A DNA stretch of 64,000 nt, taken from the sequence record MK482688.1; one strand, given 5' to 3'. This DNA comes from Escherichia phage vB_EcoM_LMP25. The stretch's first letter is position 1; the number at the start of each line of letters is the position of its first letter. Below the pieces are notes generated by a model, which did not search any database, was not told the origin of the DNA, and worked only from the letters and a program-made list of their open reading frames with translations. Positions 1,200 through 14,964 of the stretch are shown piece after piece. Both the position numbers and the translations under genes were made by a program.

Positions 1200-2732
1200 T
1201 TATCGGTTGTCCCAACCTCTGGGTCACCATCATATGTGAACAAAATATCTACCCTTCTTAACAACCTTCTTAAGCTTACTCTCTATATATAGTTATATAG
1301 TACTATATAGTATCTTAGTATCTATCTAGTGGTCTTAATAGCCCTCTGTATAACCCTTCTAACAAGCCCTCTAACAAGCCTTCTTAACAACCTATACAAT
1401 CACCTTAACCACCTCTCTATACCCTCTTAGAAGCTCCTATACACCTCTTAATCTCTAGGTTAGCTATGACACTCTCTATAGGTGTTCACTAGGTATTACT
1501 AAGCCTCTATATAGACTGTTTTAACAAACTTAACAGGAATATCTTCACAGACCTTATCTCACAAGGTCTAACACGGTACTAACAAGGTATCTTATAAGCC
1601 TGTTATTACCTGTATTTTAGAAAGGCTGTATAGGTAATTATTCAGAATCTTAAAATTTTTATAAAATAGGACTATCAAGTCATTTTTTAGGGTCTTTGAA
1701 GGAACTGAAAAATATCTGTAGAAGATGTATATCTGCTTGGTAGCCCTTAACAACTCCCTTACAAGTACTTTGCAAAATTTTAAATATCATTAACAATTCC
1801 TTAACAACTCTCTCAAGTTCTTAACATCTCTTCAGAGGTCTTAACAGATTCTTAACAGAACTAACAAGGTTGTAACAAGTTCTTAACAGTTGATACATAG
1901 GCTTTACAGAATCTTAACAGATGACTAACAAGAGCTAACAAGTTAATTTTTAAGAGTTATTTTGTTAAGATAATTAACAAGTTTCTAACAAGTGTTTAAT
2001 CTTTTTAACAAGCTATTAACATGGTCACTACTCTTTTCTTATCGTTCCCTTTCCCTCTTAGTGATTCTCTAAACATACCTCTTAAAAGCTCTCTATAGCT
2101 CTTTATAAGCTCTTTTAAGCCTCTTCCTAGTAATTACACCCCAACTGTACAGATACCTCTTTATAAGGCTTTACAGGGGCTTTAAAGGCTATGTCAAAGG
2201 TTCTTACAAGGCTTTTACGTTGTCTTAACAGAGATTTAACAAGGGGCTAACAAGTTGCTAACAAGCATAACTATGTAGGGATTGTTAAGAAATTGTTAAG
2301 AAAATGTTAAGGGGGCTAGCATTTACGTAACTTTTAAGCAACTTCAAAGTAACTTTATAGCCCCTATAACATACTTTTAAGACACTAACAAGCCCTTTTT
2401 AGATATTCACAAGATAGCTAACGAGATAATAAAGCTTATAACCTTATAAGATTCTTTTAAGCCTCTATAAAGCCCTGTAAAGAGCTTTTTAAGGTTGGTT
2501 AATGCAATCCCTTAAGTTAGGTTGATAAGGCTGTTATAGAGCTTTATAGAGCATTTAAATGGGCCATCCCCTTTCTGGGGTTATTGGCTTTTATTTAAGT
2601 TGATTTGATAAAAGGTTATAGAGTAGACTATAGAGTTATTGCTTTTTAAGGTATGAGATAGATTCTATCGAATTAGTGGGATAGATTCTAGGAAGGAAAG
2701 GGAAAGGGTTGTATAGAGGCTATTACATAGAC
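1200..2732. repeat. ORF-free, G-depleted (on + strand) region dense in degenerate short words (CTTAACAAG, CTCTATA, CTTTTAAG) in both orientations
   Basis: No ORF of 60 aa or more on either strand over about 1.5 kb between convergent terminators; words counted by eye. Confidence 0.6.
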
Positions 2733-2787
2733 GTAAAAAAGCCCCTATGAGAAGGAGCTTTTCAGGTATCTGGGGCTATTTAGCCCC
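2733..2787 (-). terminator. tandem stem-loops ending the - strand early array
   Basis: On - strand GCTCCT-tctcat-AGGGGC followed by TTTTTT (plus 2735-2758), and GGGGCTAAATAGCCCC at 2772-2787. Confidence 0.45.
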
Positions 2788-2797
2788 GTTGCGTCGA

Positions 2798-3046
2798 TTA
2801 GTTGTAACCTTGTTTGCTGTAGTATAGGGAGACGATTTTTTCTCCCCAGTAGTGGTAGTGATATTCCTCGTTTATGGCTTCTTTTACAGCGTCCTTCCAA
2901 AAGTCATCGGTAGGGTTATAATCTGGTAGCACCTGCTGAATCAGCATTTTGATAAGGTCAAAGGTGTTATCTGTTCCACCGATATCGAATTTTGCATCAA
3001 GTTCGTGGCAGCCATAAGCATTAACAGTTACGCGGATAGTTGACAT
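2798..3046 (-). CDS. hypothetical small early protein
   Basis: 82 aa, ATG verified, preceded by F1 cassette with GGAG. Confidence 0.55.
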   Translation of the reverse strand: MSTIRVTVNAYGCHELDAKFDIGGTDNTFDLIKMLIQQVLPDYNPTDDFWKDAVKEAINEEYHYHYWGEKIVSLYYSKQGYN

Positions 3047-3112
3047 AATTTAGATTCTCCAGTTTAGGACTTTACTTAGTGGGGGGGAGGTCATCCCCCG
3101 TTGATTAGTAAT
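3047..3112 (-). promoter_or_regulatory. F1 intergenic cassette (TAAATT -10-like, GC stem-loop, conserved leader with GGAG)
   Basis: About 66 bp conserved block, one of 7 F1 copies; read on - strand. Confidence 0.5.
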
Positions 3113-3376
3113 TTACTGCATATTGGCGTATGTTGCAAGCCTTTTTTCGTTGTATTTTGTAAGAATCTCACAAGATACAACATCATACTTTGTAACAGCG
3201 TTGCCTTTATCGAGGTCAAAAAAGCCAAACGCTTTACCATCTTTGAATCCGACAACTTCGTAAGATTCTTTGATGATTTCACCATTGAACAAATCACTTT
3301 CGATACGGTGAAATAATGCTACATCTTCTTTGTCGGTTGCAATTTGTAAAAGTGTGGTTAATTCTACGTTTTCCAT
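3113..3376 (-). CDS. hypothetical small early protein
   Basis: 87 aa, ATG verified, F1 cassette upstream. Confidence 0.55.
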   Translation of the reverse strand: MENVELTTLLQIATDKEDVALFHRIESDLFNGEIIKESYEVVGFKDGKAFGFFDLDKGNAVTKYDVVSCEILTKYNEKRLATYANMQ

Positions 3377-3442
3377 CTTGATAACTCCAGTTTAGGATTT
3401 TATTTAGTGGGGAAGGTCATTCCCTCCCCGTTGATTGACAAT
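3377..3442 (-). promoter_or_regulatory. F1 intergenic cassette
   Basis: ctgTAAATTgtcaatcaacGGGGAGGGaatgaCCTTCCCCactaaataaagtcctaaactGGAGattcaaaATG on - strand. Confidence 0.5.
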
Positions 3443-3973
3443 TTACAGACTTTTGATTGTCTCGTCAATATCTTTTTCAATGTCTTTTAAAGTTTTTTCT
3501 AAGTTCTTGATATTAAAGGATAAACCTTCACCAAGAGTCTTAGAGTAACCACTAGGACGTAAATTATACAGCTTAATTTCTTCCACTTTAAAGAGACTAA
3601 CTAACTCACCGTTTACATCATAAGCCATTGAAACAGTATTTGCAGGTGCATTGTAAAACTTGTTTAAGGACTTGATAGAGCGTTCATAAGCCATTTTATA
3701 ACCGTTTAAAAGGCTTTTAACGTGGTTGTGAACGTTTTTACACTCATCTAAGTAAATCTCTAAGAATAACGGTAATAATTCCGCTACAGCTTGCATAAAG
3801 TGAGAGACTACAACGGTTGAAACATTACGACGATGAACGTAATAAGCCCCGTTTTCTGATTTGGTGATTGTTGCGAAATGTACCCCATTACAACGGAATT
3901 CGTATGTATCTTTTACAGGCTTAGACATTACAGCATTTGAACGAATGAAGTTGATAGCTTGAAATTTGTTCAT
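3443..3973 (-). CDS. hypothetical early protein
   Basis: 176 aa, ATG verified. Confidence 0.55.
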   Translation of the reverse strand: MNKFQAINFIRSNAVMSKPVKDTYEFRCNGVHFATITKSENGAYYVHRRNVSTVVVSHFMQAVAELLPLFLEIYLDECKNVHNHVKSLLNGYKMAYERSIKSLNKFYNAPANTVSMAYDVNGELVSLFKVEEIKLYNLRPSGYSKTLGEGLSFNIKNLEKTLKDIEKDIDETIKSL

Positions 3974-4045
3974 TTTAGAATCTCCAGTTTAGGACTTTAT
4001 TTAGTGGGGAGGTTATTGCCTTCCCGTTGATTAGTAATTTACTTG
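3974..4045 (-). promoter_or_regulatory. F1 intergenic cassette (variant stem)
   Basis: Conserved block with variant stem GGGAGG..CCTTCCC; followed by an extra 150 bp AT-rich spacer to 4193. Confidence 0.45.
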
Positions 4046-4193
4046 TTTTGATAGTTGATTGCAAGTAATTTTTTGAGCTTATCTATAAAGAATCTTTTAA
4101 GTGAATCCCTTTTAGATAACCCCCTCGAACAAAGTTACCAATGTCAATGGGTATTGTCAACACTTTTTTAAAAGTTTTTTTGTAAGTTATTGA

Positions 4194-4535
4194 TTAACTG
4201 ATGAATATTTTTTCAGGTTTTACATAGCTGATACGCTGACTTTTTAGCAGGTCATCCCAGATTAACGCGGCGATATGGGCATAACCGGATTCACGTAAAA
4301 GTTTCATTGTTTTACTTCTCGTTTCAAAACGGCTTGCATAGTACTCACTATTCAGCGTCGTTTTATTCCCTTCGTTGTCTACATGGATAATCTGCATCAC
4401 TTGAAAGGGGCTTGTGTCCTCGCCTTTGTTCCACTGTTCAAAGTATTTTAGGCACTGCATAGGTGACATCTTATCACTAACCTGAGTTGACCAAGATGCG
4501 CCAGCTTTATCGGTAATTACGGTTACATAAGCCAT
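4194..4535 (-). CDS. hypothetical early protein
   Basis: 113 aa, ATG verified. Confidence 0.55.
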   Translation of the reverse strand: MAYVTVITDKAGASWSTQVSDKMSPMQCLKYFEQWNKGEDTSPFQVMQIIHVDNEGNKTTLNSEYYASRFETRSKTMKLLRESGYAHIAALIWDDLLKSQRISYVKPEKIFIS

Positions 4536-4612
4536 TTTTTGAATCTCCTAGTTTAAGGACTTTATTTAGTGGGGAAGGTCATTCCCTCCCCGTTGATTGA
4601 CAATTTACAGAT
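4536..4612 (-). promoter_or_regulatory. F1 intergenic cassette
   Basis: Near-identical to copy at 3377-3442. Confidence 0.5.
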
Positions 4613-4627
4613 TTTTATCAGGCTTGT

Positions 4628-4861
4628 CTAGTCTTTTTCAATGATAATTTCATACTGACCGTCAACACTGTCGAAATAGATTCCGTCGTCATCTTCTGTC
4701 TTAAAGTAACATTGTATATCATCACTAGCGGGATAGTCTTTCCTTGCTATCTGGCAAACTTGAATAGCATTTTCTTTACTTCCTGTAAACTCTTCAAGCC
4801 CTTTAAAGTCACATGAATGGCCATTACAAATTGAGAGGATGAGATAAACGGTTGTAAGCAT
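4628..4861 (-). CDS. hypothetical small protein with N-terminal hydrophobic segment
   Basis: 77 aa, MLTTVYLILSICNG hydrophobic N-terminus, acidic C-terminus. Confidence 0.5.
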   Translation of the reverse strand: MLTTVYLILSICNGHSCDFKGLEEFTGSKENAIQVCQIARKDYPASDDIQCYFKTEDDDGIYFDSVDGQYEIIIEKD

Positions 4862-4927
4862 GATTTAAGCCCTCTAAAAGCCCCTACAAGGGGCTGATTA
4901 GTGTTTATAAGGTGATTGCATAGGTTT

Positions 4928-5470
4928 TTAGAAAAAGCTCTTTAAATCCTCTTCTGCAATGTTTCCTGTCAGTGTATCCATGATGTCACAAAAAACATGA
5001 ATACTGTCCGACTGTTGTACACTTTTAGCAAGAAGCTCCAGAGACTCGTCAAGATAGTTTAAATTTGGGTTATCCAATGAAGGAAGACAAAAAGGCGAAA
5101 ACATCGCATTAAACTCTGTTGTATAGACCTTTTTAATCCAATTTACATCAAAGTACTCTGTAAAACTTGCTACACTCGACATATTATCACAAGAATAATC
5201 ATCATTTAGCTCATCCTCTGGAATATCGAGTTCTAAGATAACAATATTTTGAGTCTTCATCTGAAAAGCTGCGGTGATAGTGGCATTGCCTAGAGCTTGC
5301 TGAATGCCCTCTGATGCTATTTCTTCCTCATCGTCGCCATAGATTTTATTTTCTGGATACACGTAAAAATTGCCGTCCATATCCGAACAATTCCATGCGC
5401 CTGATGGTTTATCACCGTTATTAATCAGGTTGAGGAAATTTTCTTGAGTAGTTCCGTGATAGCATTTCAT
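4928..5470 (-). CDS. hypothetical early protein (acidic)
   Basis: 180 aa, ATG verified. Confidence 0.55.
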   Translation of the reverse strand: MKCYHGTTQENFLNLINNGDKPSGAWNCSDMDGNFYVYPENKIYGDDEEEIASEGIQQALGNATITAAFQMKTQNIVILELDIPEDELNDDYSCDNMSSVASFTEYFDVNWIKKVYTTEFNAMFSPFCLPSLDNPNLNYLDESLELLAKSVQQSDSIHVFCDIMDTLTGNIAEEDLKSFF

Positions 5471-5557
5471 TTTTGAATCTCCTAGTTTAAGGATTTAGTG
5501 GTAAAGCTCTTTATCTGGGGCTTACTTTATCGAACTATAAGCCCCTTGTAAAGTACT
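5471..5557 (-). promoter_or_regulatory. F2 intergenic cassette (TAAAGT including upstream stop codon, GGGGCTTA..TAAGCCCC stem-loop, conserved leader with GGAG)
   Basis: One of 6 F2 copies; 8 bp perfect inverted repeat. Confidence 0.5.
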
Positions 5558-5806
5558 TTATTTAACTTTCTTTGAGAAAATTAGTTTAACTGCAACCGTA
5601 GGAACCTCGTCAGCGATTGTAACCAGCATCACTTTTTGAGTAACCAACCTATAGCCGTTCTTTGCAGCGTATGCGGTGAAACGGTTAACATTGTAACTAT
5701 AAGTTTTTGCCGTGTTATCTGGCATGTGGTAAATGAAAGGTTTACCCAAATTTTCTTCTTGTGTCAATAATCTACAGGTATCGGGAATGTTAAAGTAGTT
5801 CATCAT
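5558..5806 (-). CDS. hypothetical small early protein
   Basis: 82 aa, ATG verified. Confidence 0.55.
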   Translation of the reverse strand: MMNYFNIPDTCRLLTQEENLGKPFIYHMPDNTAKTYSYNVNRFTAYAAKNGYRLVTQKVMLVTIADEVPTVAVKLIFSKKVK

Positions 5807-5892
5807 TTTTAGAATCTCCAGTTTAGGATTTAGTGGTAAAGCTCTTTATCTGAGGCTTAAGTTATCAACTTTTAAGCCCCTTGTAAAGTACT
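5807..5892 (-). promoter_or_regulatory. F2 intergenic cassette
   Basis: Variant stem GAGGCTTAAG..AAGCCCC. Confidence 0.45.
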
Positions 5893-6096
5893 TTATTTGT
5901 TATTTTTGACAACTTTTAAAACTGCAAGATAGCCTAAGCAATAAGAATCACCGAAGAGAGTCCTACCCATGAAAGAATCCTCTTTGATATCCTTTGCAGT
6001 GACAGTTTTTTCTACGCCGTGGGAAAGGACTATATCACCAACTTTGATATCTTTGATGTGTGTAGTTTCAATGGTTAAACCATTAATAATAGCCAT
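5893..6096 (-). CDS. hypothetical small early protein
   Basis: 67 aa, ATG verified. Confidence 0.5.
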   Translation of the reverse strand: MAIINGLTIETTHIKDIKVGDIVLSHGVEKTVTAKDIKEDSFMGRTLFGDSYCLGYLAVLKVVKNNK

Positions 6097-6197
6097 TTTT
6101 GAATCTCCAGTTTAGGACTTTATTTAGTGGGGAAGGTCATTCCCTCCCCGTTGATGTGTAATTTAATCTATCTAAAAACCAGTGTCAACAAAATTTT
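6097..6197 (-). promoter_or_regulatory. F1 cassette with complete sigma70-like promoter
   Basis: On - strand TTGACA (6188-6183), 17 nt spacer, TAAATT (6165-6160), then F1 stem-loop and leader. Confidence 0.5.
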
Positions 6198-6602
6198 TTA
6201 GAGTTCTGCATAAATTGCATCACAGATATCGCGGAAGTCATGATTAGTCAAATTACGCTGCAACCAAGTGGCGAAAAAGTCAGCGATTGCAAAGTTAGCA
6301 TCATACTCGACAGATAGCCACACTTTAACAGCAAATCGGAACATTTTCAAATCTAACTCTTTATTCATTACCTTAGATTTGCCTAACATGTCGGACATTT
6401 CATATTGCGCACCGTCTAGTGTGATACCTGCTGCAACGTCAGCCAATGAATTTTTTACGCTTTCAACGTCTAAGATAACACTTTGAATCTTCCCAATAAT
6501 GTTTTGCAGTGTTTCATCTGGTGCTGATGACGTGATAACATTAATCCGGTTAACGGTCAAACGTGCTTTTAAAATTGATAATTCACGGTTATTAATAGCC
6601 AT
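6198..6602 (-). CDS. hypothetical early protein
   Basis: ORF track start 6617 is TTG; ATG at 6602 (MAINN) follows GGAG of cassette. Confidence 0.5.
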   Translation of the reverse strand: MAINNRELSILKARLTVNRINVITSSAPDETLQNIIGKIQSVILDVESVKNSLADVAAGITLDGAQYEMSDMLGKSKVMNKELDLKMFRFAVKVWLSVEYDANFAIADFFATWLQRNLTNHDFRDICDAIYAEL

Positions 6603-6688
6603 TTTTAAGTTCTCCAATTTAGGATTTAGTGGTAAAGCTCTTTATCTGGGGCTTACTTTATCGAACTATAAGCCCCTTGTAAAGTACT
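6603..6688 (-). promoter_or_regulatory. F2 intergenic cassette
   Basis: Near-identical to copy at 5471-5557. Confidence 0.5.
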
Positions 6689-6961
6689 TTACATTAAATG
6701 CAGTTTTTTGCCTTTTACTATAATGTAACTCGATGCGCTATTGCTTTGCACATCTTGATAAATTCTGCGCAAACGGCCTTCATAGTGTACTTTCCAGCTA
6801 GTTGGAATCTTTTTCCCGTATCCGGTAGCAGTTTTTTGGAGTCCTGCTACTTGCCAATCTAAGATGTGTTGCTCAGCTTGTAAATCATCAAAGCACATTA
6901 CACCATCAACATAGTGACGTAGAGTGACATTTAAAGTACGACCGTTGTTAGTAGTATACAT
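6689..6961 (-). CDS. hypothetical small early protein
   Basis: 90 aa, ATG verified. Confidence 0.55.
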   Translation of the reverse strand: MYTTNNGRTLNVTLRHYVDGVMCFDDLQAEQHILDWQVAGLQKTATGYGKKIPTSWKVHYEGRLRRIYQDVQSNSASSYIIVKGKKLHLM

Positions 6962-7050
6962 TTTTGAATCTCCTAGTTTAAGGACTTTATTTAGTAGGGA
7001 GGTTATTACCTCCCCGTTGATGTGTAATTTAATCTATCTAAAAATCAGTG
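6962..7050 (-). promoter_or_regulatory. F1 cassette (variant) with sigma70-like promoter
   Basis: TTGACA (7054-7049, overlapping upstream stop), 17 nt spacer, TAAATT (7031-7026). Confidence 0.5.
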
Positions 7051-7383
7051 TCAACAGTTTTGTTTTCGTTTGCTCAATTCTTGAACAATTACAGCGTGAT
7101 AATCTTTTAAGTCACTAATATTTAAAGCATTTATCAGAGAATTATAATCATCGACTAATTGAAAATTATCTTTGAAAATGTCACTGATTTGATAAGTTCT
7201 CGCCCTGAATCTAAAGCTCATTTCTAGCCGTTTTAATTGTTCATCACTTAAACGCTCTAGAAAGCTCATTACAAGGTTATTATTAACCTGTTGTGTGATT
7301 GCCTTACTTGCCAGATTATAGGCTTTATATGCCTTATATAGCGCGAAAATGGCAATGATTGCAGTGATACCAGTCATTAACAT
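7051..7383 (-). CDS. hypothetical membrane protein
   Basis: 110 aa; N-terminal hydrophobic helix ITAIIAIFALY; overlaps upstream gene. Confidence 0.5.
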   Translation of the reverse strand: MLMTGITAIIAIFALYKAYKAYNLASKAITQQVNNNLVMSFLERLSDEQLKRLEMSFRFRARTYQISDIFKDNFQLVDDYNSLINALNISDLKDYHAVIVQELSKRKQNC

Positions 7384-7673
7384 GGTGTTTCCTCTTTACG
7401 TGATACTTTGCCATTTACAGTTATCTCATAGGATTCTAATAAATCGCTTTTAGACTTTACAGGACTTTTAAAAGTATCATCATAAATATTGACTTGCAAT
7501 ACAGGTTTTTTATACTCCCTGCAACTGTTCCATAAGCAAATCACTACACGACGGCCTTTGATTTTTCCGTGTAACCATTCCATAACATCATGACTATTCC
7601 TTGATGTTTCAATGAAATCAATTTTATTAAGTAACTTGCTTAAATTTTCACGGACTTTATTTGATAATTTCAT
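7377..7673 (-). CDS. hypothetical small early protein
   Basis: 98 aa, ATG verified. Confidence 0.5.
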   Translation of the reverse strand: MKLSNKVRENLSKLLNKIDFIETSRNSHDVMEWLHGKIKGRRVVICLWNSCREYKKPVLQVNIYDDTFKSPVKSKSDLLESYEITVNGKVSRKEETPC

Positions 7674-7765
7674 TTTAGAATCTCCTAGTTTAAGGGTTGA
7701 TTTGAATAAAGCTCTTTATCTGGGGCTATCTTATCAGTCTGGTAACCCCGTGTAAAGAAATCTAT
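7674..7765 (-). promoter_or_regulatory. F2 intergenic cassette (divergent variant)
   Basis: Shares ctttatctggggc core; stem GGGGCTAtc..GGTAACCCC. Confidence 0.4.
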
Positions 7766-8278
7766 TTAGTTCTTAAAGATATTCATCACTGAGTCTTTCA
7801 ACGATTCCAAACGTTCTAATACTTCAGATTCTGCGTCTGCGTTGTTCACCTCTTCTTTTAGTCTATCCTCTAAATCATCGCCGTCACGATAGCACCAATC
7901 GAAAGCATAACCAATATAAAAACTCTCTAAAACCGTGCTACCGTTTGCATCTACAACTTTCGCGGCGATGTTATATTCTGAAGCCTCTAAATCTCTTTCT
8001 AGTTCTTTCTGTAAGCTGATGTAAGCCTCTTTTGATGGGTTTTCCCGGCCTTGTTTTGCATAGTCACTTGAAAGCTGTTTAAGGCTGTAATGTAAAGGGA
8101 TTGCATATTTAAATTCATTACGCTGACAGCTAGGATTTTTAATCGTCACACCGCCTTGATGGTCATCTGTAAATTCCCAATTATCAAGATTATGGCTTGC
8201 TTCAAAGCAATTAACTGCTTCGTAAATGATGGAAAATTTTTCTTTTACAACTTCAAAGGTAGCGTCTACAGTTTTCAT
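7766..8278 (-). CDS. hypothetical early protein (acidic)
   Basis: 170 aa, ATG verified. Confidence 0.55.
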   Translation of the reverse strand: MKTVDATFEVVKEKFSIIYEAVNCFEASHNLDNWEFTDDHQGGVTIKNPSCQRNEFKYAIPLHYSLKQLSSDYAKQGRENPSKEAYISLQKELERDLEASEYNIAAKVVDANGSTVLESFYIGYAFDWCYRDGDDLEDRLKEEVNNADAESEVLERLESLKDSVMNIFKN

Positions 8279-8363
8279 TTTTGAATCTCCAGTTTAGGAT
8301 TTAGTGGTAAAGCTCTTTATCTGGGGCTTAAGATATCAGCTTTTAAGCCCCCTGTAAAGTACT
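8279..8363 (-). promoter_or_regulatory. F2 intergenic cassette
   Basis: Conserved block. Confidence 0.5.
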
Positions 8364-8657
8364 TTATTTGTTAATTTTCAGCTTTGCATAACTTCTCATT
8401 GTACGAATGGGGGATGTTAATGCTACGCGTCTAATGTATGCCTTTTTCGTGTATACATTTGTCTTCCCGATAGTGTTTACACATGTAAAAAGGTTTATCG
8501 GTGAATTTTTTAACTTCAACTGTTTATCAACCTTCACGCCCCACCTTACAGCAGATTGTTTTCCGTTGTCAACCACTTTCCCGCATAACTTTTTAGCCAT
8601 AACGCGAGCGTCATCACGAGTCTTTGCAGTAATTACAACGTTTTTGATAATAGCCAT
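8364..8657 (-). CDS. hypothetical small basic early protein
   Basis: ORF track start 8672 is TTG inside the cassette; ATG at 8657 (MAIIKN). Confidence 0.5.
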   Translation of the reverse strand: MAIIKNVVITAKTRDDARVMAKKLCGKVVDNGKQSAVRWGVKVDKQLKLKNSPINLFTCVNTIGKTNVYTKKAYIRRVALTSPIRTMRSYAKLKINK

Positions 8658-8743
8658 TTTTAAGTTCTCCAATTTAGGATTGAGTGGTAAAGCTCTTTAT
8701 CTGGGGCTTACTTTATCGAACTATAAGCCCCTTGTAAAGTACT
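8658..8743 (-). promoter_or_regulatory. F2 intergenic cassette
   Basis: Conserved block. Confidence 0.5.
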
Positions 8744-9127
8744 TTATTTGTTAATTTTGAAGATAGTTACATAACCATCGCTGCCGATGATTTGTGATGC
8801 TCCAGCTTTTTCTACTTGATAGCCCATATTTTCAAGATGGTAAACAGCATCATCATAACCATATGCGCCGCCCTGATAACGTCTCTTATCACATCTTACT
8901 AATACCTTTCCACGTCCTGCCAGTGCATTTAGTACGGCTTTTTCACTTGAAAGTGTACCATCTAACATGGTTGCCGTGTAATGGTTGATTCTATTCCCGT
9001 TTACATCATACTTAAAATTGAATGCGTGAACAACGATAATGTTACCTTTAAAATTCTCATCAAGTGACTTCTCCAGTGCGTTGCGAAAGTTGTCTTTGTT
9101 GATGAATTTAGGTGCACGATATGCCAT
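8744..9127 (-). CDS. hypothetical early protein, first gene of array
   Basis: 127 aa, ATG verified. Confidence 0.55.
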   Translation of the reverse strand: MAYRAPKFINKDNFRNALEKSLDENFKGNIIVVHAFNFKYDVNGNRINHYTATMLDGTLSSEKAVLNALAGRGKVLVRCDKRRYQGGAYGYDDAVYHLENMGYQVEKAGASQIIGSDGYVTIFKINK

Positions 9128-9190
9128 TTTTGAATCTCCAGTTTAGGACTTTATTTAGTGGGGAAGGTCATTCCCTCCCCGTTGATGCAA
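9128..9190 (-). promoter_or_regulatory. F1 intergenic cassette
   Basis: Conserved block upstream of first array gene. Confidence 0.5.
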
Positions 9191-9219
9191 ATACTAGATA
9201 ACCACGTTCAAAGAGTCAA
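9191..9219 (-). promoter_or_regulatory. sigma70-like promoter for early array
   Basis: On - strand TTGACT (9219-9214), 17 nt spacer, TAGTAT (9196-9191). Confidence 0.4.
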
Positions 9220-9341
9220 GAAAAAATTTTAAAAATATTTTTGGCAAAACTGTAATGAAACGGGCGCACACAACTACCACAAAACAGAACACAAATCAAG
9301 AATTATTTTTCAATCCGCTACAAATTTTTCTCTTGACTTTT

Positions 9342-9372
9342 GGGGAGAGGGGGAGTAAGAGGGGGAGAGGGG
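9342..9372 (+). repeat. polypurine mirror repeat / G-quadruplex motif
   Basis: GGGGagaGGGGGagtaagaGGGGGagaGGGG; four G-runs of 4-5 with loops of 3, 7 and 3 nt. Confidence 0.6.
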
Positions 9373-9395
9373 TTGGTCTGGCTCTCTATAAAAAC

Positions 9396-9590
9396 CTACC
9401 TGCACAAATCTAAAATGATTTTTCTTGCCCGACCTGAGTGTGGTCTGCACGTTTTGAAAATGAAAAAGCTCTTTGGAGATTATCTGCACAGTTTGAAAAT
9501 GAATTTTCTCTTTGGAGTTCAAAATTCTCTCTACAGATTTCTCTACAGAACTCTACCTGCACAATTCTGAAATGAAAAAGCCCTCCTTAC
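9396..9590. repeat. four direct repeats CTGCAC-N3-TTGAAAATGA at about 40 bp spacing
   Basis: Copies near 9405, 9440, 9484 and 9560 on + strand; no ORF. Confidence 0.5.
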
Positions 9591-9648
9591 CTGAAAAATT
9601 TACCAGATAAGAAAGGCTTAGGCTATTGTGAATATCCTACAGAGTTTC

Positions 9649-10434
9649 TTAGTTCTTTGCGTCTAAGAAGGTAACTTCTGGTGAAGAGAAAACTGTCTCG
9701 ATATCCTCATCAGTTCTTGCATAGATATAAGTATCTGCATCACTGCCAAATGTTACTGCAATCCTGTGATTGCTCTTCGACAGGTGGGTAACTAGAGCGT
9801 TACTTAGAGACATCTTTTCAACCGGAGGGTTACTTTGATGTATCTTACCTTTTCTTCGTCTGAAGAGGGTAACTGCGTTATCTGTGAACACTGCTACACC
9901 TGCAAAGTATTCTGGTTCACAGTAGTTCTTCCAACCTGAGCGTAACTTGTGGTACATCTCTCCTTCGTAGACATAAAGATACACATCTACACTCTTCATC
10001 ACCTGATTAATGATAACTGTGACGGCTTGAGGGTCTAGTCCACCGATACCTGCACCAATCATAGGTAACCCAACTTTCTTCAACTGATTGACTTCACAGT
10101 ATCTGTTAAGTTGTTTCAAAGATGACTCTAAAGCACTGTATCGGGCATCTTTACCAGTCTTAAGCTGAGTGTAAAGGTTAGCTATACGGCCTTGTTCTAA
10201 ACGTGCTACAGAGAAATTACCCAGTAGATTTTCACAGGGTTTGTGACCTATACCACCTGCATAGAGGTAAACTTCTGTATCGGTCTCATATGCTTTTGGG
10301 TAAAGTTTAGAAATCTTGTCAGCGATACCTGCACCCATTAAATTCATACAGTTGCAACCGTGACCAATGATGTCAAACTTACCTTTATCAAATGCTGCAA
10401 AGATATCGCCATTGATGATTTTTACAATACCCAT
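9649..10434 (-). CDS. macro-domain-like protein (putative ADP-ribose binding/processing) with unknown C-terminal domain
   Basis: N-terminal GDIF..DIIGHGCNCMNLMGAGIADKI and GLPMIGAGIGGLD resemble macro-domain Gly-rich motifs (from memory). Confidence 0.45.
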   Translation of the reverse strand: MGIVKIINGDIFAAFDKGKFDIIGHGCNCMNLMGAGIADKISKLYPKAYETDTEVYLYAGGIGHKPCENLLGNFSVARLEQGRIANLYTQLKTGKDARYSALESSLKQLNRYCEVNQLKKVGLPMIGAGIGGLDPQAVTVIINQVMKSVDVYLYVYEGEMYHKLRSGWKNYCEPEYFAGVAVFTDNAVTLFRRRKGKIHQSNPPVEKMSLSNALVTHLSKSNHRIAVTFGSDADTYIYARTDEDIETVFSSPEVTFLDAKN

Positions 10435-12462: not shown

Positions 12463-13158
12463 TCAATGTTTAACTAACATGGTTTTAATGTGTGGAAGGA
12501 TTCTGTTCACCTTTTGCACATTCTTCTCTGTGTCTTCTATAAAACATACTATATTAAAGTAAGGCAGAATGCAAGACTGAATCATCCTCACTTTCAAACT
12601 TTCTGCACTTATAGAGTTAGTCCCAAAACCACGCATAAAAAGCATGTAATCATGCTCTATGTAATGCCTTAAAAACATCTCAGTAGGTATTCTCTGAGAT
12701 TCACCTCTCGCTGTCAAGAGTCCAATGGCGGCATGATTAGCAATTGCATCAATAATATTGAAAACATACGTTGGTTTTGCTCTTACAGAGTCAAGCAAAT
12801 TAGTGTACTGTGAAAATGACCCATCAATCAATTCCGTTGAGTAATCTTCGTGATTAAAATTTGTAAGAACACCATCAATGTCTGCTAAGATAAGGTTACC
12901 TTTTTCTACAAGGTCTTTATTGACTATGACTAAGCTGTCACGCCTTACACCTATAGTTTGTCCAGTCTCTTTATCTACAACATTCACAATTGTCTCTAAT
13001 GTGTGGAACTCTTCGAGTGAACATACAACTTCTCTTGCGGTATCTTCAAAATCCCTACACTGTTCTGGAGTCCATACACAGGAATCAAGACCTAACTCAT
13101 GAGGATGTAAGTCATAAGCATGACACAGTACTTCATCAGACTTTCTTAATTTTTTCAT
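12463..13158 (-). CDS. HAD-superfamily phosphatase / nucleotidase-like
   Basis: LADIDGVLT matches HAD motif I (DxDG). Confidence 0.5.
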   Translation of the reverse strand: MKKLRKSDEVLCHAYDLHPHELGLDSCVWTPEQCRDFEDTAREVVCSLEEFHTLETIVNVVDKETGQTIGVRRDSLVIVNKDLVEKGNLILADIDGVLTNFNHEDYSTELIDGSFSQYTNLLDSVRAKPTYVFNIIDAIANHAAIGLLTARGESQRIPTEMFLRHYIEHDYMLFMRGFGTNSISAESLKVRMIQSCILPYFNIVCFIEDTEKNVQKVNRILPHIKTMLVKH

Positions 13159-13684
13159 GATTTACCTTAGAAATGTTTGTTGCAAATTCACATTGAGCAA
13201 TAACTTTCATGTTGTTATAGACATCTTGAGAATATTTCTTAGCTTTAGGGATTCTGTACGAATACCCAGCATTATATGATGCTAAAACTTTTTGTAAAGT
13301 TTTCTTTGACTTTGGCTGACCATGCACCTTTGTCCAAAATTCAAGTTCTTTGTGCGTTTCCTTTGCAGCATAGTCAAAGTCTCTTAAGAGTTTCTTTTTA
13401 GCCACATTAGGACTAATTTTGTTACGCTTTACAACAGTCTTCAAGTGATTCTGGAAAATACCATAATCATGTGTCTTTTTATTCTCTACCTTCAGACCTA
13501 ACTCTGACTCTTGTAAGGCTATAGCAGCTAGAGTGATACCCCAACCTTTACCCATGTTATTCTCACCATACTGGTAAGCTTTTAACATGTTTACTTTTTG
13601 GCTAATTGATAGCTCTGGGCAGTCAACTGCATAAGATAAGTGTGCTGTAAACATTAAGCACAAACCTAGAATCAATTTCTTCAT
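13136..13684 (-). CDS. secreted lytic transglycosylase (SLT domain)
   Basis: Cleavable signal peptide, catalytic-region ALQESELG, and ASYNAGYSY (AYNAG-like) motif. Confidence 0.55.
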   Translation of the reverse strand: MKKLILGLCLMFTAHLSYAVDCPELSISQKVNMLKAYQYGENNMGKGWGITLAAIALQESELGLKVENKKTHDYGIFQNHLKTVVKRNKISPNVAKKKLLRDFDYAAKETHKELEFWTKVHGQPKSKKTLQKVLASYNAGYSYRIPKAKKYSQDVYNNMKVIAQCEFATNISKVNHEKIKKV

Positions 13685-14944: not shown

Positions 14945-14964
14945 AGGGGCTTTGAAGCCCCTTG
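14945..14964 (-). other. intergenic stem-loop GGGGCTTCAAAGCCCC
   Basis: Perfect 7 bp stem between rIIA-like and rIIB-like genes. Confidence 0.4.

What the first reader, a model, noticed from the sequence alone, without database searches (positions are those of the whole stretch)
2798..9221. Array of 15 small early-type genes, each with its own conserved promoter/stem-loop/leader cassette
Thirteen intergenic gaps carry one of two conserved 65-90 bp cassettes. Read on the - strand, each has a -10-like TAAATT or TAAAGT (in F2 overlapping the upstream stop codon), then a GC-rich stem-loop about 10 nt downstream, then a near-invariant leader ending ..CCUAAACUGGAGAUUCAAAA-AUG. Two copies keep a full TTGACA-17-TAAATT promoter. 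This points to many individually transcribed short mRNAs beginning with a 5' stem-loop, typical of host-takeover or anti-defence loci. None of the encoded proteins has a recognisable motif.
Basis: seen in the sequence. Interest (0 to 1): 0.7.

Follow-up and report, generated by a model that had tools for sequence, protein, structure and literature searches.

The report
Promoter-hairpin cassettes between phage early genes
A Felix O1-type phage carries 15 small genes, 13 of them preceded by one of two repeated ~95-base units that combine a host-type promoter, an RNA hairpin and a standard ribosome-binding leader; the design is real but matches the 'PeSL' cassettes already described in T4-like phages, here found in a different phage group.

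Summary
The window is a Felixounavirus, 100% identical to Escherichia phage vB_EcoM_LMP33. On the minus strand of 2798-9221 lie 15 small genes. Thirteen are preceded by a cassette: 7 of type F1 and 6 of type F2. No full copy occurs elsewhere in the 64 kb.

Comparison across 13 Ounavirinae genomes corrects the reading.
- All F1 copies, not two, carry TTGnnn/TAGACA-17-TAnnnT. A hairpin starts exactly 10 nt after the -10.
- The F2 promoter is not the TAAAGT at the stop codon, which has no -35. It is TTTACA-17-TAnnnT, with its -10 inside the hairpin loop. T, A and T are invariant in 33 variants, while the three middle bases vary freely.
- The hairpins keep pairing through G-U and a few compensatory changes, on the sense strand.
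- Gene gains and losses between genomes break inside the cassettes, and chimeric cassettes mark the crossovers.

This anatomy matches the PeSL (promoter-early stem-loop) cassettes of T4-type phages. Felix O1 papers list the repeats without interpreting them. I call it a new member of a known kind.

One array protein has an ADP-ribosyltransferase fold. Promoter activity, RNA 5' ends and the role of the hairpins remain untested.

The parts
9578..9619 (-). Intrinsic terminator upstream of the array (17-bp stem followed by a T run); t13 in Felix O1
   Evidence: PMC3185647 Table 2
9126..9221 (-). F1 cassette 1. TTGACT(9219-9214)-17-TAGTAT(9196-9191) with an A/T-rich upstream tract; hairpin 9180-9160; leader and SD; predicted start near 9183
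8744..9127 (-). gene 1, 127 aa, PHROG 4495, function unknown
8658..8748 (-). F2 cassette. TTTACA(8738-8733)-17-TAAAGT(8715-8710); hairpin 8731-8703; invariant AGATAAAGAG; predicted start near 8702
8364..8657 (-). gene 2, 97 aa, function unknown
8277..8368 (-). F2 cassette. TTTACA(8358-8353)-17-TGaTATCTT(8335-8330); hairpin about 8351-8323; predicted start near 8322
7766..8278 (-). gene 3, 170 aa. Confident model (pLDDT 92) with no fold match
7672..7766 (-). F2 cassette, divergent variant. TTTACA(7756-7751)-17-TGaTAAGAT(7733-7728); hairpin 7749-7722 (GGGGTTA/TAGCCCC with a U-G pair); predicted start near 7721
7377..7673 (-). gene 4, 98 aa, function unknown
7051..7383 (-). gene 5, 110 aa. No cassette; its start overlaps the stop of gene 4, so it shares a transcript with gene 4
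6960..7056 (-). F1 cassette. TTGACA(7054-7049)-17-TAAATT(7031-7026); hairpin 7015-6996 (GGGGAGGT/ACCTCCCT); predicted start near 7018
6689..6961 (-). gene 6, 90 aa, function unknown
6603..6692 (-). F2 cassette. TTTACA(6683-6678)-17-TAAAGT(6660-6655); hairpin 6676-6648. The extended three-tier helix folds at -27.2 kcal/mol, z -4.9; predicted start near 6647
6198..6602 (-). gene 7, 134 aa, function unknown
6095..6190 (-). F1 cassette. TTGACA(6188-6183)-17-TAAATT(6165-6160); hairpin 6149-6129; predicted start near 6152
5893..6096 (-). gene 8, 67 aa, function unknown
5807..5897 (-). F2 cassette. TTTACA(5887-5882)-17-TGaTAACTT(5864-5859); hairpin 5880-5852 (one G-U pair); predicted start near 5851
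5558..5806 (-). gene 9, 82 aa. Absent from several relatives, where one chimeric cassette stands in its place
5469..5562 (-). F2 cassette. TTTACA(5552-5547)-17-TAAAGT(5529-5524); hairpin 5545-5517; predicted start near 5516
4928..5470 (-). gene 10, 180 aa. ADP-ribosyltransferase fold by structure prediction; conserved C-[FY]-H-G-T-T, F-Y-V-Y-P and E80
4876..4895 (-). Terminator-like hairpin inside the array: AGCCCCTTGTAGGGGCT followed by UUUU
4628..4861 (-). gene 11, 77 aa. No cassette; own SD (AGAGGG)
4536..4631 (-). F1 cassette. TAGACA(4630-4625)-17-TAAATT(4607-4602); hairpin 4591-4571; predicted start near 4594
4194..4535 (-). gene 12, 113 aa, function unknown
3971..4065 (-). F1 cassette. 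TTGCAA(4064-4059)-17-TAAATT(4041-4036); hairpin about 4025-4006 (one A-C mismatch); predicted start near 4028
3443..3973 (-). gene 13, 176 aa, function unknown
3376..3469 (-). F1 cassette. TTGACG(3468-3463, inside the coding end of gene 13)-17-TAAATT(3445-3440, contains the stop codon); hairpin 3429-3409; predicted start near 3432
3113..3376 (-). gene 14, 87 aa, function unknown
3047..3140 (-). F1 cassette. TTGCAA(3138-3133, coding)-17-TAAATT(3115-3110, contains the stop codon); hairpin 3099-3083 (GGGGGA/TCCCCC); predicted start near 3102
2798..3046 (-). gene 15, 82 aa, function unknown
2772..2787 (-). Promoterless cassette-type hairpin after the last gene: CAAC-GGGGCTAAATAGCCCC-AGATA
   Evidence: the same sequence is in L012
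2734..2759 (-). Intrinsic terminator closing the array: AGCTCC..GGGGCT followed by TTTTTT; t23 in Felix O1
   Evidence: PMC3185647 Table 2

Best explanation
The array is a hyperplastic early-gene region built from plug-in expression units of the PeSL type. Each unit has three parts.
1. A promoter read by the host sigma-70 RNA polymerase. F1 is TTGnnn-17-TAAATT. F2 is TTTACA-17-TAnnnT.
2. A G-rich/C-rich hairpin that forms in sense-strand RNA.
3. A standard leader (ACUAAAU..CCUAAACUGGAGAUUCAAAA-AUG) with a GGAG Shine-Dalgarno site.

In F1 the hairpin lies 10 nt after the -10. F1 transcripts are therefore predicted to start at the A of AAC, about 3 nt before the stem. That position fits a 5'-terminal protective stem-loop.

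In F2 the hairpin spans the spacer, the -10 and the start site. It is present only in RNA arriving from upstream, where it forms a roughly 21-bp three-tier helix right after the upstream stop codon. There it would act as an attenuator, a 3'-end protector or a processing site. F2-initiated RNA is predicted to start at the invariant AGAUAAAGAG.

Because about 90 nt is repeated 13 times in the same direction, homologous recombination between cassettes adds, deletes and relocates units of one gene plus one cassette without breaking expression.

Shown here: the repeats, the position-specific conservation, RNA-compatible pairing, and recombination junctions inside cassettes. Inferred: promoter activity, start sites, and what the hairpins do.
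For: Promoter footprints.
- F1: in 64 distinct copies from 13 genomes of Felixounavirus, Mooglevirus, Suspvirus and unclassified Ounavirinae, the only invariant columns upstream of the hairpin are T.G of the -35, TA...T of the -10 and TCA before the stem. The 17-bp spacer is unconserved.
- The F1 -35 is kept even where it lies in coding sequence and the spacer has diverged. An example is TTGACG-agacaatcaaaagtctg in the window against TTGACG-aaatcatcagaactcta in SUSP1.
- F2: 68 copies in 33 variants all have TTTACA, then 17 nt (18 nt once), then TAnnnT. Positions 1, 2 and 6 are invariant and positions 3-5 use all four bases. Many variants carry TG at the extended -10 position.
- The 1-nt length difference between F2 variants falls after the -10, so the spacer stays at 17.
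- Erwinia Kolesnikvirus copies with a different stem (GGTGTTTA/TAAGCACC) still read TTTACA-17-TAGTAT or TAATCT.
- C-A sits 7-8 nt after both -10 elements.

Hairpins.
- All 31 distinct F1 hairpin variants fold, starting at the same position. Energies are -5 to -17 kcal/mol against -1 to -7 for shuffles. Stems differ: GGGGAGGG/CCUUCCCC, GGGGGA/UCCCCC, GGGGC/GCCCC, GGGC/GCCC.
- F2 helix: 96.8% of cells are paired against 31-59% when the partner is slid. Changes include G-C to U-A compensatory pairs, 15 C-G to U-G changes and 2 G-C to G-U changes. These are tolerated only on the sense strand.
- RNAalifold finds the same helix independently. The MFE is -27.2 kcal/mol, z -4.9.

Recombination.
- 46 of 56 homology breakpoints against 12 relatives fall in cassettes, which make up 26% of the region.
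- Genomes lacking gene 5558-5806 carry one chimeric cassette. In L008 and L009 the 5' part matches cassette 8 (3-6 mismatches in 95 nt, against 26-29 to cassette 9) and the leader matches cassette 9. In L003 and L010 the crossover lies further 5'.
- The same gene family sits behind F1 in one genome and F2 in another. One family occupies different slots in different genomes.

Match to the published PeSL anatomy: upstream stop codon in A/T-rich sequence, sigma-70 boxes, polyG/polyC stem-loop with G-T pairs overlapping or following the -10, then SD and start codon. The T4/PST consensus is TTTACW-N17-TAYWAT (PMC2839356; PMC4122927).
Against: - No RNA 5'-end or reporter data exist for any Ounavirinae phage in the searched literature.
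- A plain consensus scan is not enriched over shuffles in this A/T-rich region: 32 sites against 24.2 +/- 5.4. The case rests on positional conservation.
- Some of that conservation is confounded. CTTTA of the F2 -35 also pairs with the invariant TAAAG in the lower helix. The last T of the F2 -10 is the first base of the 3' stem arm.
- In 2 of the 7 window F1 copies, TAAATT contains the upstream stop codon.
- Cassettes are homogenised within and between genomes, so covariation counts reflect few independent events. The RNAalifold covariation term is only -0.6 kcal/mol.
- The hairpins lack a U tract, so classical termination is not expected.
- Felix O1 end-point RT-PCR puts some array ORFs at 5 min and others at 25 min.
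- A third cassette type in Erwinia phages has no well-placed -10.
Confidence: 0.65

Rival explanations
1. There is one long early transcript from the first promoter (9191-9219). The cassettes are RNA processing and stabilising sites, as in the T7 early region where RNase III cuts between cistrons and leaves protective hairpins. The internal promoter-like hexamers are weak or incidental.
For: - The F2 RNA folds into a roughly 21-bp helix with a 3x3 internal loop and a 1x1 mismatch, the size and shape of RNase III substrates.
- The lower helix explains the invariance of CTTTA and TAAAG without any promoter.
- The first cassette has the best upstream A/T tract. The array is bracketed by true terminators at 9578-9619 and 2734-2759.
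- A promoterless hairpin follows the last gene at 2772-2787.
- All one-sided stem changes are G-U on the sense strand.
Against: - It does not explain the invariant TA in the F2 loop at exactly 17 nt from TTTACA while neighbouring loop bases vary.
- It does not explain the T.G/TA...T footprint with a free 17-bp spacer in F1, including -35 boxes kept inside diverged coding sequence.
- F1 stems of 4-8 bp are too short for RNase III.
- A terminator-like hairpin at 4876-4895 would cut a single transcript midway.
- The two readings are not exclusive. Read-through plus internal starts is what the PeSL papers propose.
Confidence: 0.2
2. The hairpins are transcription terminators or insulators and nothing more, as several GenBank records annotate them ('rho-independent terminator'). 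Each gene is simply insulated from its neighbour.
For: - Records MZ726791 and KT184313 annotate these hairpins as terminators, from TransTermHP and WebGeSTer predictions.
- The PeSL paper reports that one such stem-loop cut lacZ expression as strongly as rrnB T1 (PMC2839356).
- The hairpins sit just after stop codons.
Against: - None of the 13 cassette hairpins is followed by a U run. The tails read ACUAAAUAAAG for F1 and AGAUAAAGAG for F2. The terminator scan picks up none of them, yet it finds the flanking true terminator.
- KT184313 even places them on the non-coding strand.
- Termination alone leaves 12 downstream genes without a way to be expressed unless promoters follow, which returns to the composite reading.
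Confidence: 0.1
3. The inverted repeats act on DNA. They are either operators for a phage repressor that shuts off early promoters, since in F2 the palindrome covers the -10 and the start site, or targets of a dedicated recombination protein, an integron-like site.
For: - The F2 inverted repeat brackets the -10 and the start site, a typical operator position.
- The PeSL authors speculated about a GGGG...CCCC-binding recombination protein (PMC2839356).
- AGATAAAGA is invariant across genera with no explanation yet.
Against: - The commonest F1 stem and many F2 stems contain G-T pairs. As duplex DNA the two arms are therefore not symmetric half-sites.
- Stem sequences differ widely between copies within one genome. 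One protein would be unlikely to tolerate that.
- No integrase or recombinase was found next to the array. The neighbours are a macro-domain protein, a polynucleotide kinase and rIIA/B.
- Crossover points vary along the cassette, as in homologous rather than site-specific exchange.
Confidence: 0.05

Closest known systems
PeSL (promoter-early stem-loop) cassettes of T4-type phages (Arbiol et al. 2010, PMC2839356; Comeau et al. 2014, PMC4122927)
   Same: - The order of parts is the same: upstream stop codon in A/T-rich sequence, sigma-70-type -35/N17/-10, a polyG/polyC stem-loop with G-T pairs, then SD and start codon.
- The stem-loop overlaps the spacer and -10 (as in F2) or lies just after the -10 (as in F1).
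- The cassettes cluster in a plastic region in front of small ORFs of unknown function.
- Indels between close relatives break at the cassettes.
- The F2 boxes fit the T4/PST consensus TTTACW-N17-TAYWAT.
   Different: - The host lineage is Ounavirinae, not T4-like phages, and no sequence homology to T4-type PeSLs is claimed.
- There are only two (three with Erwinia phages) tightly homogenised types, not a loose motif with five positional classes.
- Each carries a long, near-invariant 30-45-nt leader, including an anti-SD/SD mini-hairpin.
- In the 64 kb examined, all lie in one co-directional array (plus one looser site at rIIA|rIIB) rather than spread over many regions.
- Promoter and terminator activity and mini-circles were shown experimentally for PeSLs, not here.
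T7 early region: RNase III sites between genes 0.3-1.3 (established knowledge, not checked in a paper here)
   Same: Structured elements sit between consecutive small early genes. The F2 RNA forms a roughly 21-bp helix interrupted by an internal loop, like the R sites. Hairpins left at RNA ends would stabilise each message.
   Different: T7 early genes share three upstream promoters and have none between cistrons. Here each element also carries a conserved promoter footprint. F1 stems are too short for RNase III. Cleavage is untested.
SPO1 host-takeover module (Stewart et al. 1998; established knowledge, not checked in a paper here)
   Same: Both hold many small early genes of unknown function packed in one region, each or each pair with its own strong sigma-A/sigma-70-type promoter and strong ribosome-binding site.
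   Different: The SPO1 promoters are not part of a long repeated cassette with a hairpin and a common leader. The host is Gram-positive. No cassette-mediated shuffling has been described.
5'-terminal stabilising stem-loops such as the ompA 5' UTR (Emory, Bouvet & Belasco 1992; established knowledge)
   Same: The F1 hairpin is predicted to begin about 3 nt from the RNA 5' end. That is within the distance at which a 5' hairpin protects against 5'-end-dependent RNase E attack.
   Different: The start site is only predicted. F2 transcripts would lack such a hairpin. No half-life data exist.
Integron gene cassettes (attC) and phage 'morons'
   Same: In both, single genes are added or lost as units at repeated boundary elements without disturbing neighbours. 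The PeSL authors draw the same comparison.
   Different: There is no integrase and no attC-type site. Here every unit brings its own promoter, whereas integron cassettes are promoterless. Exchange junctions vary along the repeat, which points to homologous recombination. Morons are not bounded by conserved repeats.

Membership tests
PeSL-type composite promoter/stem-loop cassette | Sigma-70-like early promoter (-35, about 17 bp, -10) in each cassette | tested here: met
   Sequence footprint only. In F1 the T.G and TA...T columns are invariant and the spacer is free. F2 is TTTACA-17-TAnnnT in 33 of 33 variants, one of them with an 18-nt spacer. All 13 window copies are listed.
PeSL-type composite promoter/stem-loop cassette | G-rich/C-rich stem-loop overlapping or next to the promoter (between the boxes, over the -10, or just after it), with G-T pairs allowed | tested here: met
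   The F2 stem spans the spacer, the -10 and the start site. The F1 stem starts 10 nt after the -10. All variants fold. Pairing is 96.8%.
PeSL-type composite promoter/stem-loop cassette | Upstream stop codon in A/T-rich sequence at the 5' edge; SD and start codon at the 3' edge | tested here: met
   The sequence shows it. F2 begins ..AAATAAAGTAC, which holds the stop codon. In two F1 copies the stop lies within TAAATT. All cassettes end ..GGAG-N8-ATG.
PeSL-type composite promoter/stem-loop cassette | Concentrated in a plastic region in front of small ORFs without known function | tested here: met
   All 13 full copies lie in 6.2 kb of the 64 kb. None of the 15 proteins has a Pfam match, and the 10 scanned against PHROGs (genes 1-10) fall only in families of unknown function. 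Gene content varies among 13 genomes.
PeSL-type composite promoter/stem-loop cassette | Insertions, deletions and replacements between related genomes have their junctions in the cassettes | tested here: met
   46 of 56 homology breakpoints fall in cassettes, which are 26% of the region. Chimeric cassettes occur where gene 5558-5806 is missing. Genes change cassette type and slot.
PeSL-type composite promoter/stem-loop cassette | Demonstrated promoter activity and attenuator/terminator activity of the stem-loop | not testable with these tools
   This needs reporter fusions or RNA end mapping. None was found in the literature for Ounavirinae.
PeSL-type composite promoter/stem-loop cassette | Formation of cassette-plus-ORF mini-circles | not testable with these tools
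   This needs outward-facing PCR or long-read data from infected cells.
PeSL-type composite promoter/stem-loop cassette | Found in T4-type phages (the scope in which it was defined) | tested here: not met
   The window is a Felixounavirus (Ounavirinae). The kind is defined by anatomy and role, not by descent, so I file this as a new member from another lineage and not as a homologue.
Intrinsic (Rho-independent) terminator | G+C-rich hairpin followed directly by a U run | tested here: not met
   None of the 13 cassette hairpins passes the terminator scan. Their tails are ACUAAAUAAAG and AGAUAAAGAG. True terminators flank the array at 9578-9619 and 2734-2759.
RNase III processing site (T7 early type) | About two turns of double-stranded RNA, often with an internal loop, between cistrons | tested here: inconclusive
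   F2 has 5+5+8-9 bp with a 1x1 and a 3x3 internal loop. F1 stems of 4-8 bp are too short. Cleavage is not testable.
5'-terminal mRNA-stabilising stem-loop (ompA type) | Stem-loop within about 2-4 unpaired nt of the RNA 5' end | tested here: inconclusive
   In F1 the hairpin starts 10 nt after the -10 in every copy. This predicts about 3 unpaired nt, but the start site is not mapped. F2-initiated RNA would lack the hairpin.
Described RNA families (Rfam 15) | Match to a curated covariance model | tested here: not met
   There were no matches at gathering score in the window and none at E<=1 in 2500-9700.

The most novel reading that the evidence does not exclude
The cassettes may be more than passive repeats. 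They could be a self-contained mobile expression module that carries single genes between co-infecting Ounavirinae as excised circles. That would be a promoter-bearing counterpart of integron cassettes that works without an integrase. In this reading the invariant hairpin plus AGAUAAAGAG box, and the anti-SD/GGAG mini-hairpin, are recognition sites for a dedicated phage factor. That factor would be a nuclease or RNA-binding protein that times the shut-off of the early genes, as RegB does at GGAG in T4.
Probability: 0.12. Interest if true: 0.65.

Novelty: new member of a known kind. Interest (0 to 1): 0.4.

Why it matters
- It gives Felix O1-type phages, which are widely used for Salmonella typing, biocontrol and therapy, a concrete and testable map of early transcription. 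There are 13 predicted start sites in a region where the genome paper said regulation was unknown.
- It shows that the PeSL design is not peculiar to T4-like phages. Conserved promoter-hairpin-leader units also act as recombination linkers in a second, unrelated myovirus subfamily. This supports the old idea that phage modules are exchanged at conserved linker sequences.
- The two cassettes are compact, naturally insulated expression parts. They also mark which genes are dispensable and swappable for engineering.
- The array is a defined set of candidates for host-takeover or anti-defence screens, including one ADP-ribosyltransferase-fold protein.

Tried and rejected
rejected. It has no -35 above background and is not invariant.
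- **Hairpins as plain intrinsic terminators:** rejected. They have no U tract.
- **Known RNA family:** none in Rfam.
- **RegB-like nuclease acting on the invariant GGAG.** The Mordin record calls the homologue of window 13136-13684 'similar to RegB'. Pfam gives only a sub-threshold SLT match, and PDB sequence search gives nothing. Not supported.
- **Genes 6689-6961 and 5893-6096 as paralogues.** My single-linkage clustering suggested this, but direct BLASTP finds no similarity. It was a clustering artefact.
- **Sequence-level function for any of the 15 proteins.** There are no Pfam matches for any of them; genes 1-10, the only ones scanned against PHROGs, fall in families of unknown function.
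- **Transcript start or RNA-seq data for Felix O1-like phages.** None was found. The wV8 paper does not discuss the repeats its GenBank record annotates.
- **Cassettes outside Ounavirinae.** BLAST of both types against 50,697 phage records hits only Ounavirinae genera, plus single records named as Staphylococcus and Campylobacter phages and two further unlisted names. I take the Staphylococcus and Campylobacter hits for assembly chimeras and did not follow them.

Full report
**What the window is.** Region 2700-9300 is 100% identical to Escherichia phage vB_EcoM_LMP33. It is 85-98% identical, in several pieces, to about 250 other Felix O1-like phages. The genes of interest lie on the minus strand.

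**Checking the observation.** Reading the minus strand shows 15 ORFs from 9127 down to 2798. Repeat finding gives two families of intergenic repeats. Profiles built from the cassettes and run over all 64 kb return exactly 7 full F1 copies and 6 full F2 copies, with E-values from 1e-17 to 1e-27. All lie between 3047 and 9221.

The leader core occurs 7 times against 0.62 expected, and only in the array. Two genes have no cassette. Gene 7051-7383 starts at the stop of the gene before it. Gene 4628-4861 follows a terminator-like hairpin at 4876-4895. True intrinsic terminators bracket the array at 9578-9619 and 2734-2759.

**Bringing in relatives.** I fetched the homologous region from 12 other Ounavirinae. 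They cover Felixounavirus, Mooglevirus (Mordin), Suspvirus (SUSP1), Kolesnikvirus (the Erwinia phage SunLIRen) and two unclassified members. I parsed 145 cassettes from them.

**F1 anatomy.** Every parsed copy reads -35 hexamer, 17 nt, TAnnnT, 7 nt, AAC, hairpin, leader. In a 25-sequence alignment, the only invariant or near-invariant columns before the stem are T(T)G of the -35, TA...T of the -10, and TCAAC-GGG. Nothing in the 17-nt spacer is conserved.

The -35 survives even inside the coding end of the upstream gene, where the spacer has diverged between genera. In the window all seven copies qualify: TTGACA twice, TTGACT, TTGACG, TTGCAA twice, and TAGACA.

**F2 anatomy.** That hexamer departs from TAnnnT in 12 of 58 contexts. 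Its best -35 match averages 2.67 of 6, identical to shifted controls.

The conserved promoter signature lies about 25 nt further on. It is an invariant CTTTACA, then 17 nt (18 nt once), then TAnnnT. T, A and T are invariant in 33 distinct variants, and the three middle positions use all four bases. This -10 lies in the loop of the hairpin.

Several variants add TG at the extended -10 position. The 1-nt length difference between stem variants falls after the -10, so the spacer is kept at 17. Erwinia-phage copies with a different stem still read TTTACA-17-TAGTAT or TAATCT. A C-A step lies 7-8 nt after the -10 in both families. The predicted F2 start is the A of the invariant AGATAAAGAG.

**The hairpins.** All 31 distinct F1 variants fold from the same position, with stems of quite different sequence.

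For F2 I named a three-tier helix: AAAGU/GCUUU, then CUUUA/UAAAG, then GGGGCUUA/UAAGCCCC. 96.8% of cells pair, against 31-59% when the partner is slid by 1-3 columns. One G-C to U-A change on both sides occurs in the upper stem and five such cells occur in the lower stem. There are 15 C-G to U-G and 2 G-C to G-U one-sided changes. RNAalifold predicts the same helix unprompted. Single sequences fold at -20 to -27 kcal/mol, with z from -2.6 to -4.9.

G-U pairs are tolerated only on the sense strand. The structure is therefore best read as RNA, not as a symmetric protein site. The covariation is modest and the sequences are related, so this is support and not proof.

None of the hairpins is followed by a U run. 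The GenBank label 'rho-independent terminator' therefore does not describe them well. A promoterless copy of the hairpin follows the last gene at 2772-2787. That argues for a role at the 3' side of the upstream message as well.

**The leader.** Two alleles exist: CCT-AAAyT-GGAG (94 copies) and CCTT-AAAyT-AGGAG (51 copies). They are never mixed. Both can pair a CC(U) with the SD purines. Erwinia copies read CCTT-AyA-AAGG. This may be a small SD-masking hairpin. However, the two changes are 6 nt apart, so linkage alone could explain their co-occurrence.

**Evidence of shuffling.** Against the 12 relatives, 46 of 56 homology breakpoints fall in cassettes, which make up 26% of the region. Gene order tables show whole gene-plus-cassette units present or absent. 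The same gene sits behind F1 in one genome and F2 in another. One family occupies slot 1 in ASO1A and KhF1 but a middle slot in Mordin (40% identity, E 3e-11).

Where gene 5558-5806 is missing, a single cassette remains and it is chimeric. In two genomes its 5' part matches the window's cassette 8 (3-6 mismatches in 95 nt) and its leader matches cassette 9. In two others the switch lies further 5'. Variable crossover points within a shared repeat are the mark of homologous recombination.

**Comparison with what is known.** The Felix O1 genome paper lists 57-bp and 39-bp direct repeats at these positions without interpreting them. It names other promoters. It states that read-through or secondary promoters around the terminators, and temporal control, are not understood (PMC3185647). 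Its RT-PCR places ORFs 13, 16, 20, 21 and 22 at 5 min and ORFs 14, 17, 19 and 23 at 25 min. The wV8 record annotates the repeats as DR_1 to DR_9, but the paper does not discuss them.

The anatomy matches PeSLs. These are composite early-promoter/stem-loop cassettes of T4-type phages. Their stem-loops lie between the boxes, over the -10, or just after it, and G-T pairs are allowed. They run from an upstream stop codon to the SD and start codon, and they sit in hyperplastic regions before ORFans. They have been shown to promote and attenuate transcription and to recombine (PMC2839356). The T4/PST consensus TTTACW-N17-TAYWAT fits F2 (PMC4122927).

Five anatomical and genomic PeSL features were tested here and met. 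The functional ones cannot be tested with these tools. The lineage differs. I therefore file the array as a new member of a known kind. A looser site of the same design sits between rIIA and rIIB: TTGACA-18-TAGAAT with the hairpin in the spacer, at 14946-14961.

**The proteins.** None of the 15 has a Pfam match, and the ten scanned against PHROGs (genes 1-10) fall only in families of unknown function. Two were taken further.

- The 170-aa product of 7766-8278 models at pLDDT 92 but matches nothing convincingly.

**Verdict.** The finding is real. Its general reading of many separately promoted early genes is the best-supported one. The F2 promoter was misplaced, and the 5' stem-loop idea applies at most to F1. 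The kind of element is already known from T4-like phages. What is new is its clean, highly homogenised form in Ounavirinae, the predicted start sites, and the direct recombination junctions.

Noticed in passing
[not shown]
   Followed up: partly
window 9649-10434 (-): The gene just upstream of the array encodes a macro-domain protein (Pfam Macro, E 1.2e-7; relatives annotate it 'phosphatase'). Macro domains bind or remove ADP-ribose, so it may pair functionally with the ART-fold protein.
   Followed up: no
window ~1150-2730: About 1.6 kb without ORFs follows the terminator that closes the array. It is packed with dozens of short words (yTTGTTAAG, CTGTTAAGA, CTATAAAG) at a 10-12-bp period. It sits in the gap between convergent transcription units and could be a protein-binding array, an origin or a packaging region.
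   Followed up: no
window 9400-9575 (-): Four copies of TCATTTyNNAANNGTGCAG (0.5 expected) lie between the upstream terminator and the first early promoter. A similar set sits at the same place in an Erwinia Kolesnikvirus (L007 ~3560-3760). They look like iterons or operators.
   Followed up: partly
window 14946-14961 (-), rIIA|rIIB gap: This is another promoter-plus-hairpin site of PeSL design but different sequence. A stop codon is followed by TTGACA-18-TAGAAT, with GGGGCTT-CAA-AGCCCC filling the spacer.
   Followed up: partly
window 4066-4195 (-): The 220-nt gap before the F1 copy at 3971-4065 holds an extra TTGACA-17-TAACTT. It also holds an A/T-rich hairpin, TTATCTAAAAG..CTTTATAGATAA. In Mordin and vB_SflM_004 a 41-46-aa ORF sits here.
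   Followed up: partly
all cassettes; e.g. window 6103-6115 (-): The leader comes in two alleles that never mix: CCT-AAAyT-GGAG (94 copies) and CCTT-AAAyT-AGGAG (51 copies). Both let CC(U) pair with the SD purines. Erwinia phages have CCTT-AyA-AAGG. This may be an SD-masking mini-hairpin, or it may be simple linkage.
   Followed up: partly
window 2772-2787 (-): A cassette-type hairpin with no promoter and no downstream gene (CAAC-GGGGCTAAATAGCCCC-AGATA) follows the last array gene, just before the true terminator. It is conserved in vB_SflM_004.
   Followed up: partly
L012 (MK295205) and L010 (OM386661), homologues of window genes 7377-7673, 7051-7383 and 5893-6096: Some GenBank records label these 65-112-aa early proteins 'tail sheath monomer', 'tail tube protein' or 'prohead assembly scaffold protein'. 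Given their size and place these are almost certainly propagated annotation errors.
   Followed up: no
phage records GU169904 (Staphylococcus phage SA1) and one Campylobacter phage record: Both cassette types hit these records at 85-90% identity, although the phages are named for unrelated hosts. The records probably contain Felix O1-like sequence through mixed assemblies.
   Followed up: no
L007 (Erwinia phage SunLIRen) 5649-5719, 8137-8215, 8541-8618: A third cassette type has TTGCAA or TTTACA followed by GGGGTTA..TAACCCC and GTCGAAAC. It has no well-placed -10 and no AGATAAAGAG box. Its leader SD is AAGGA rather than GGAG.
   Followed up: no
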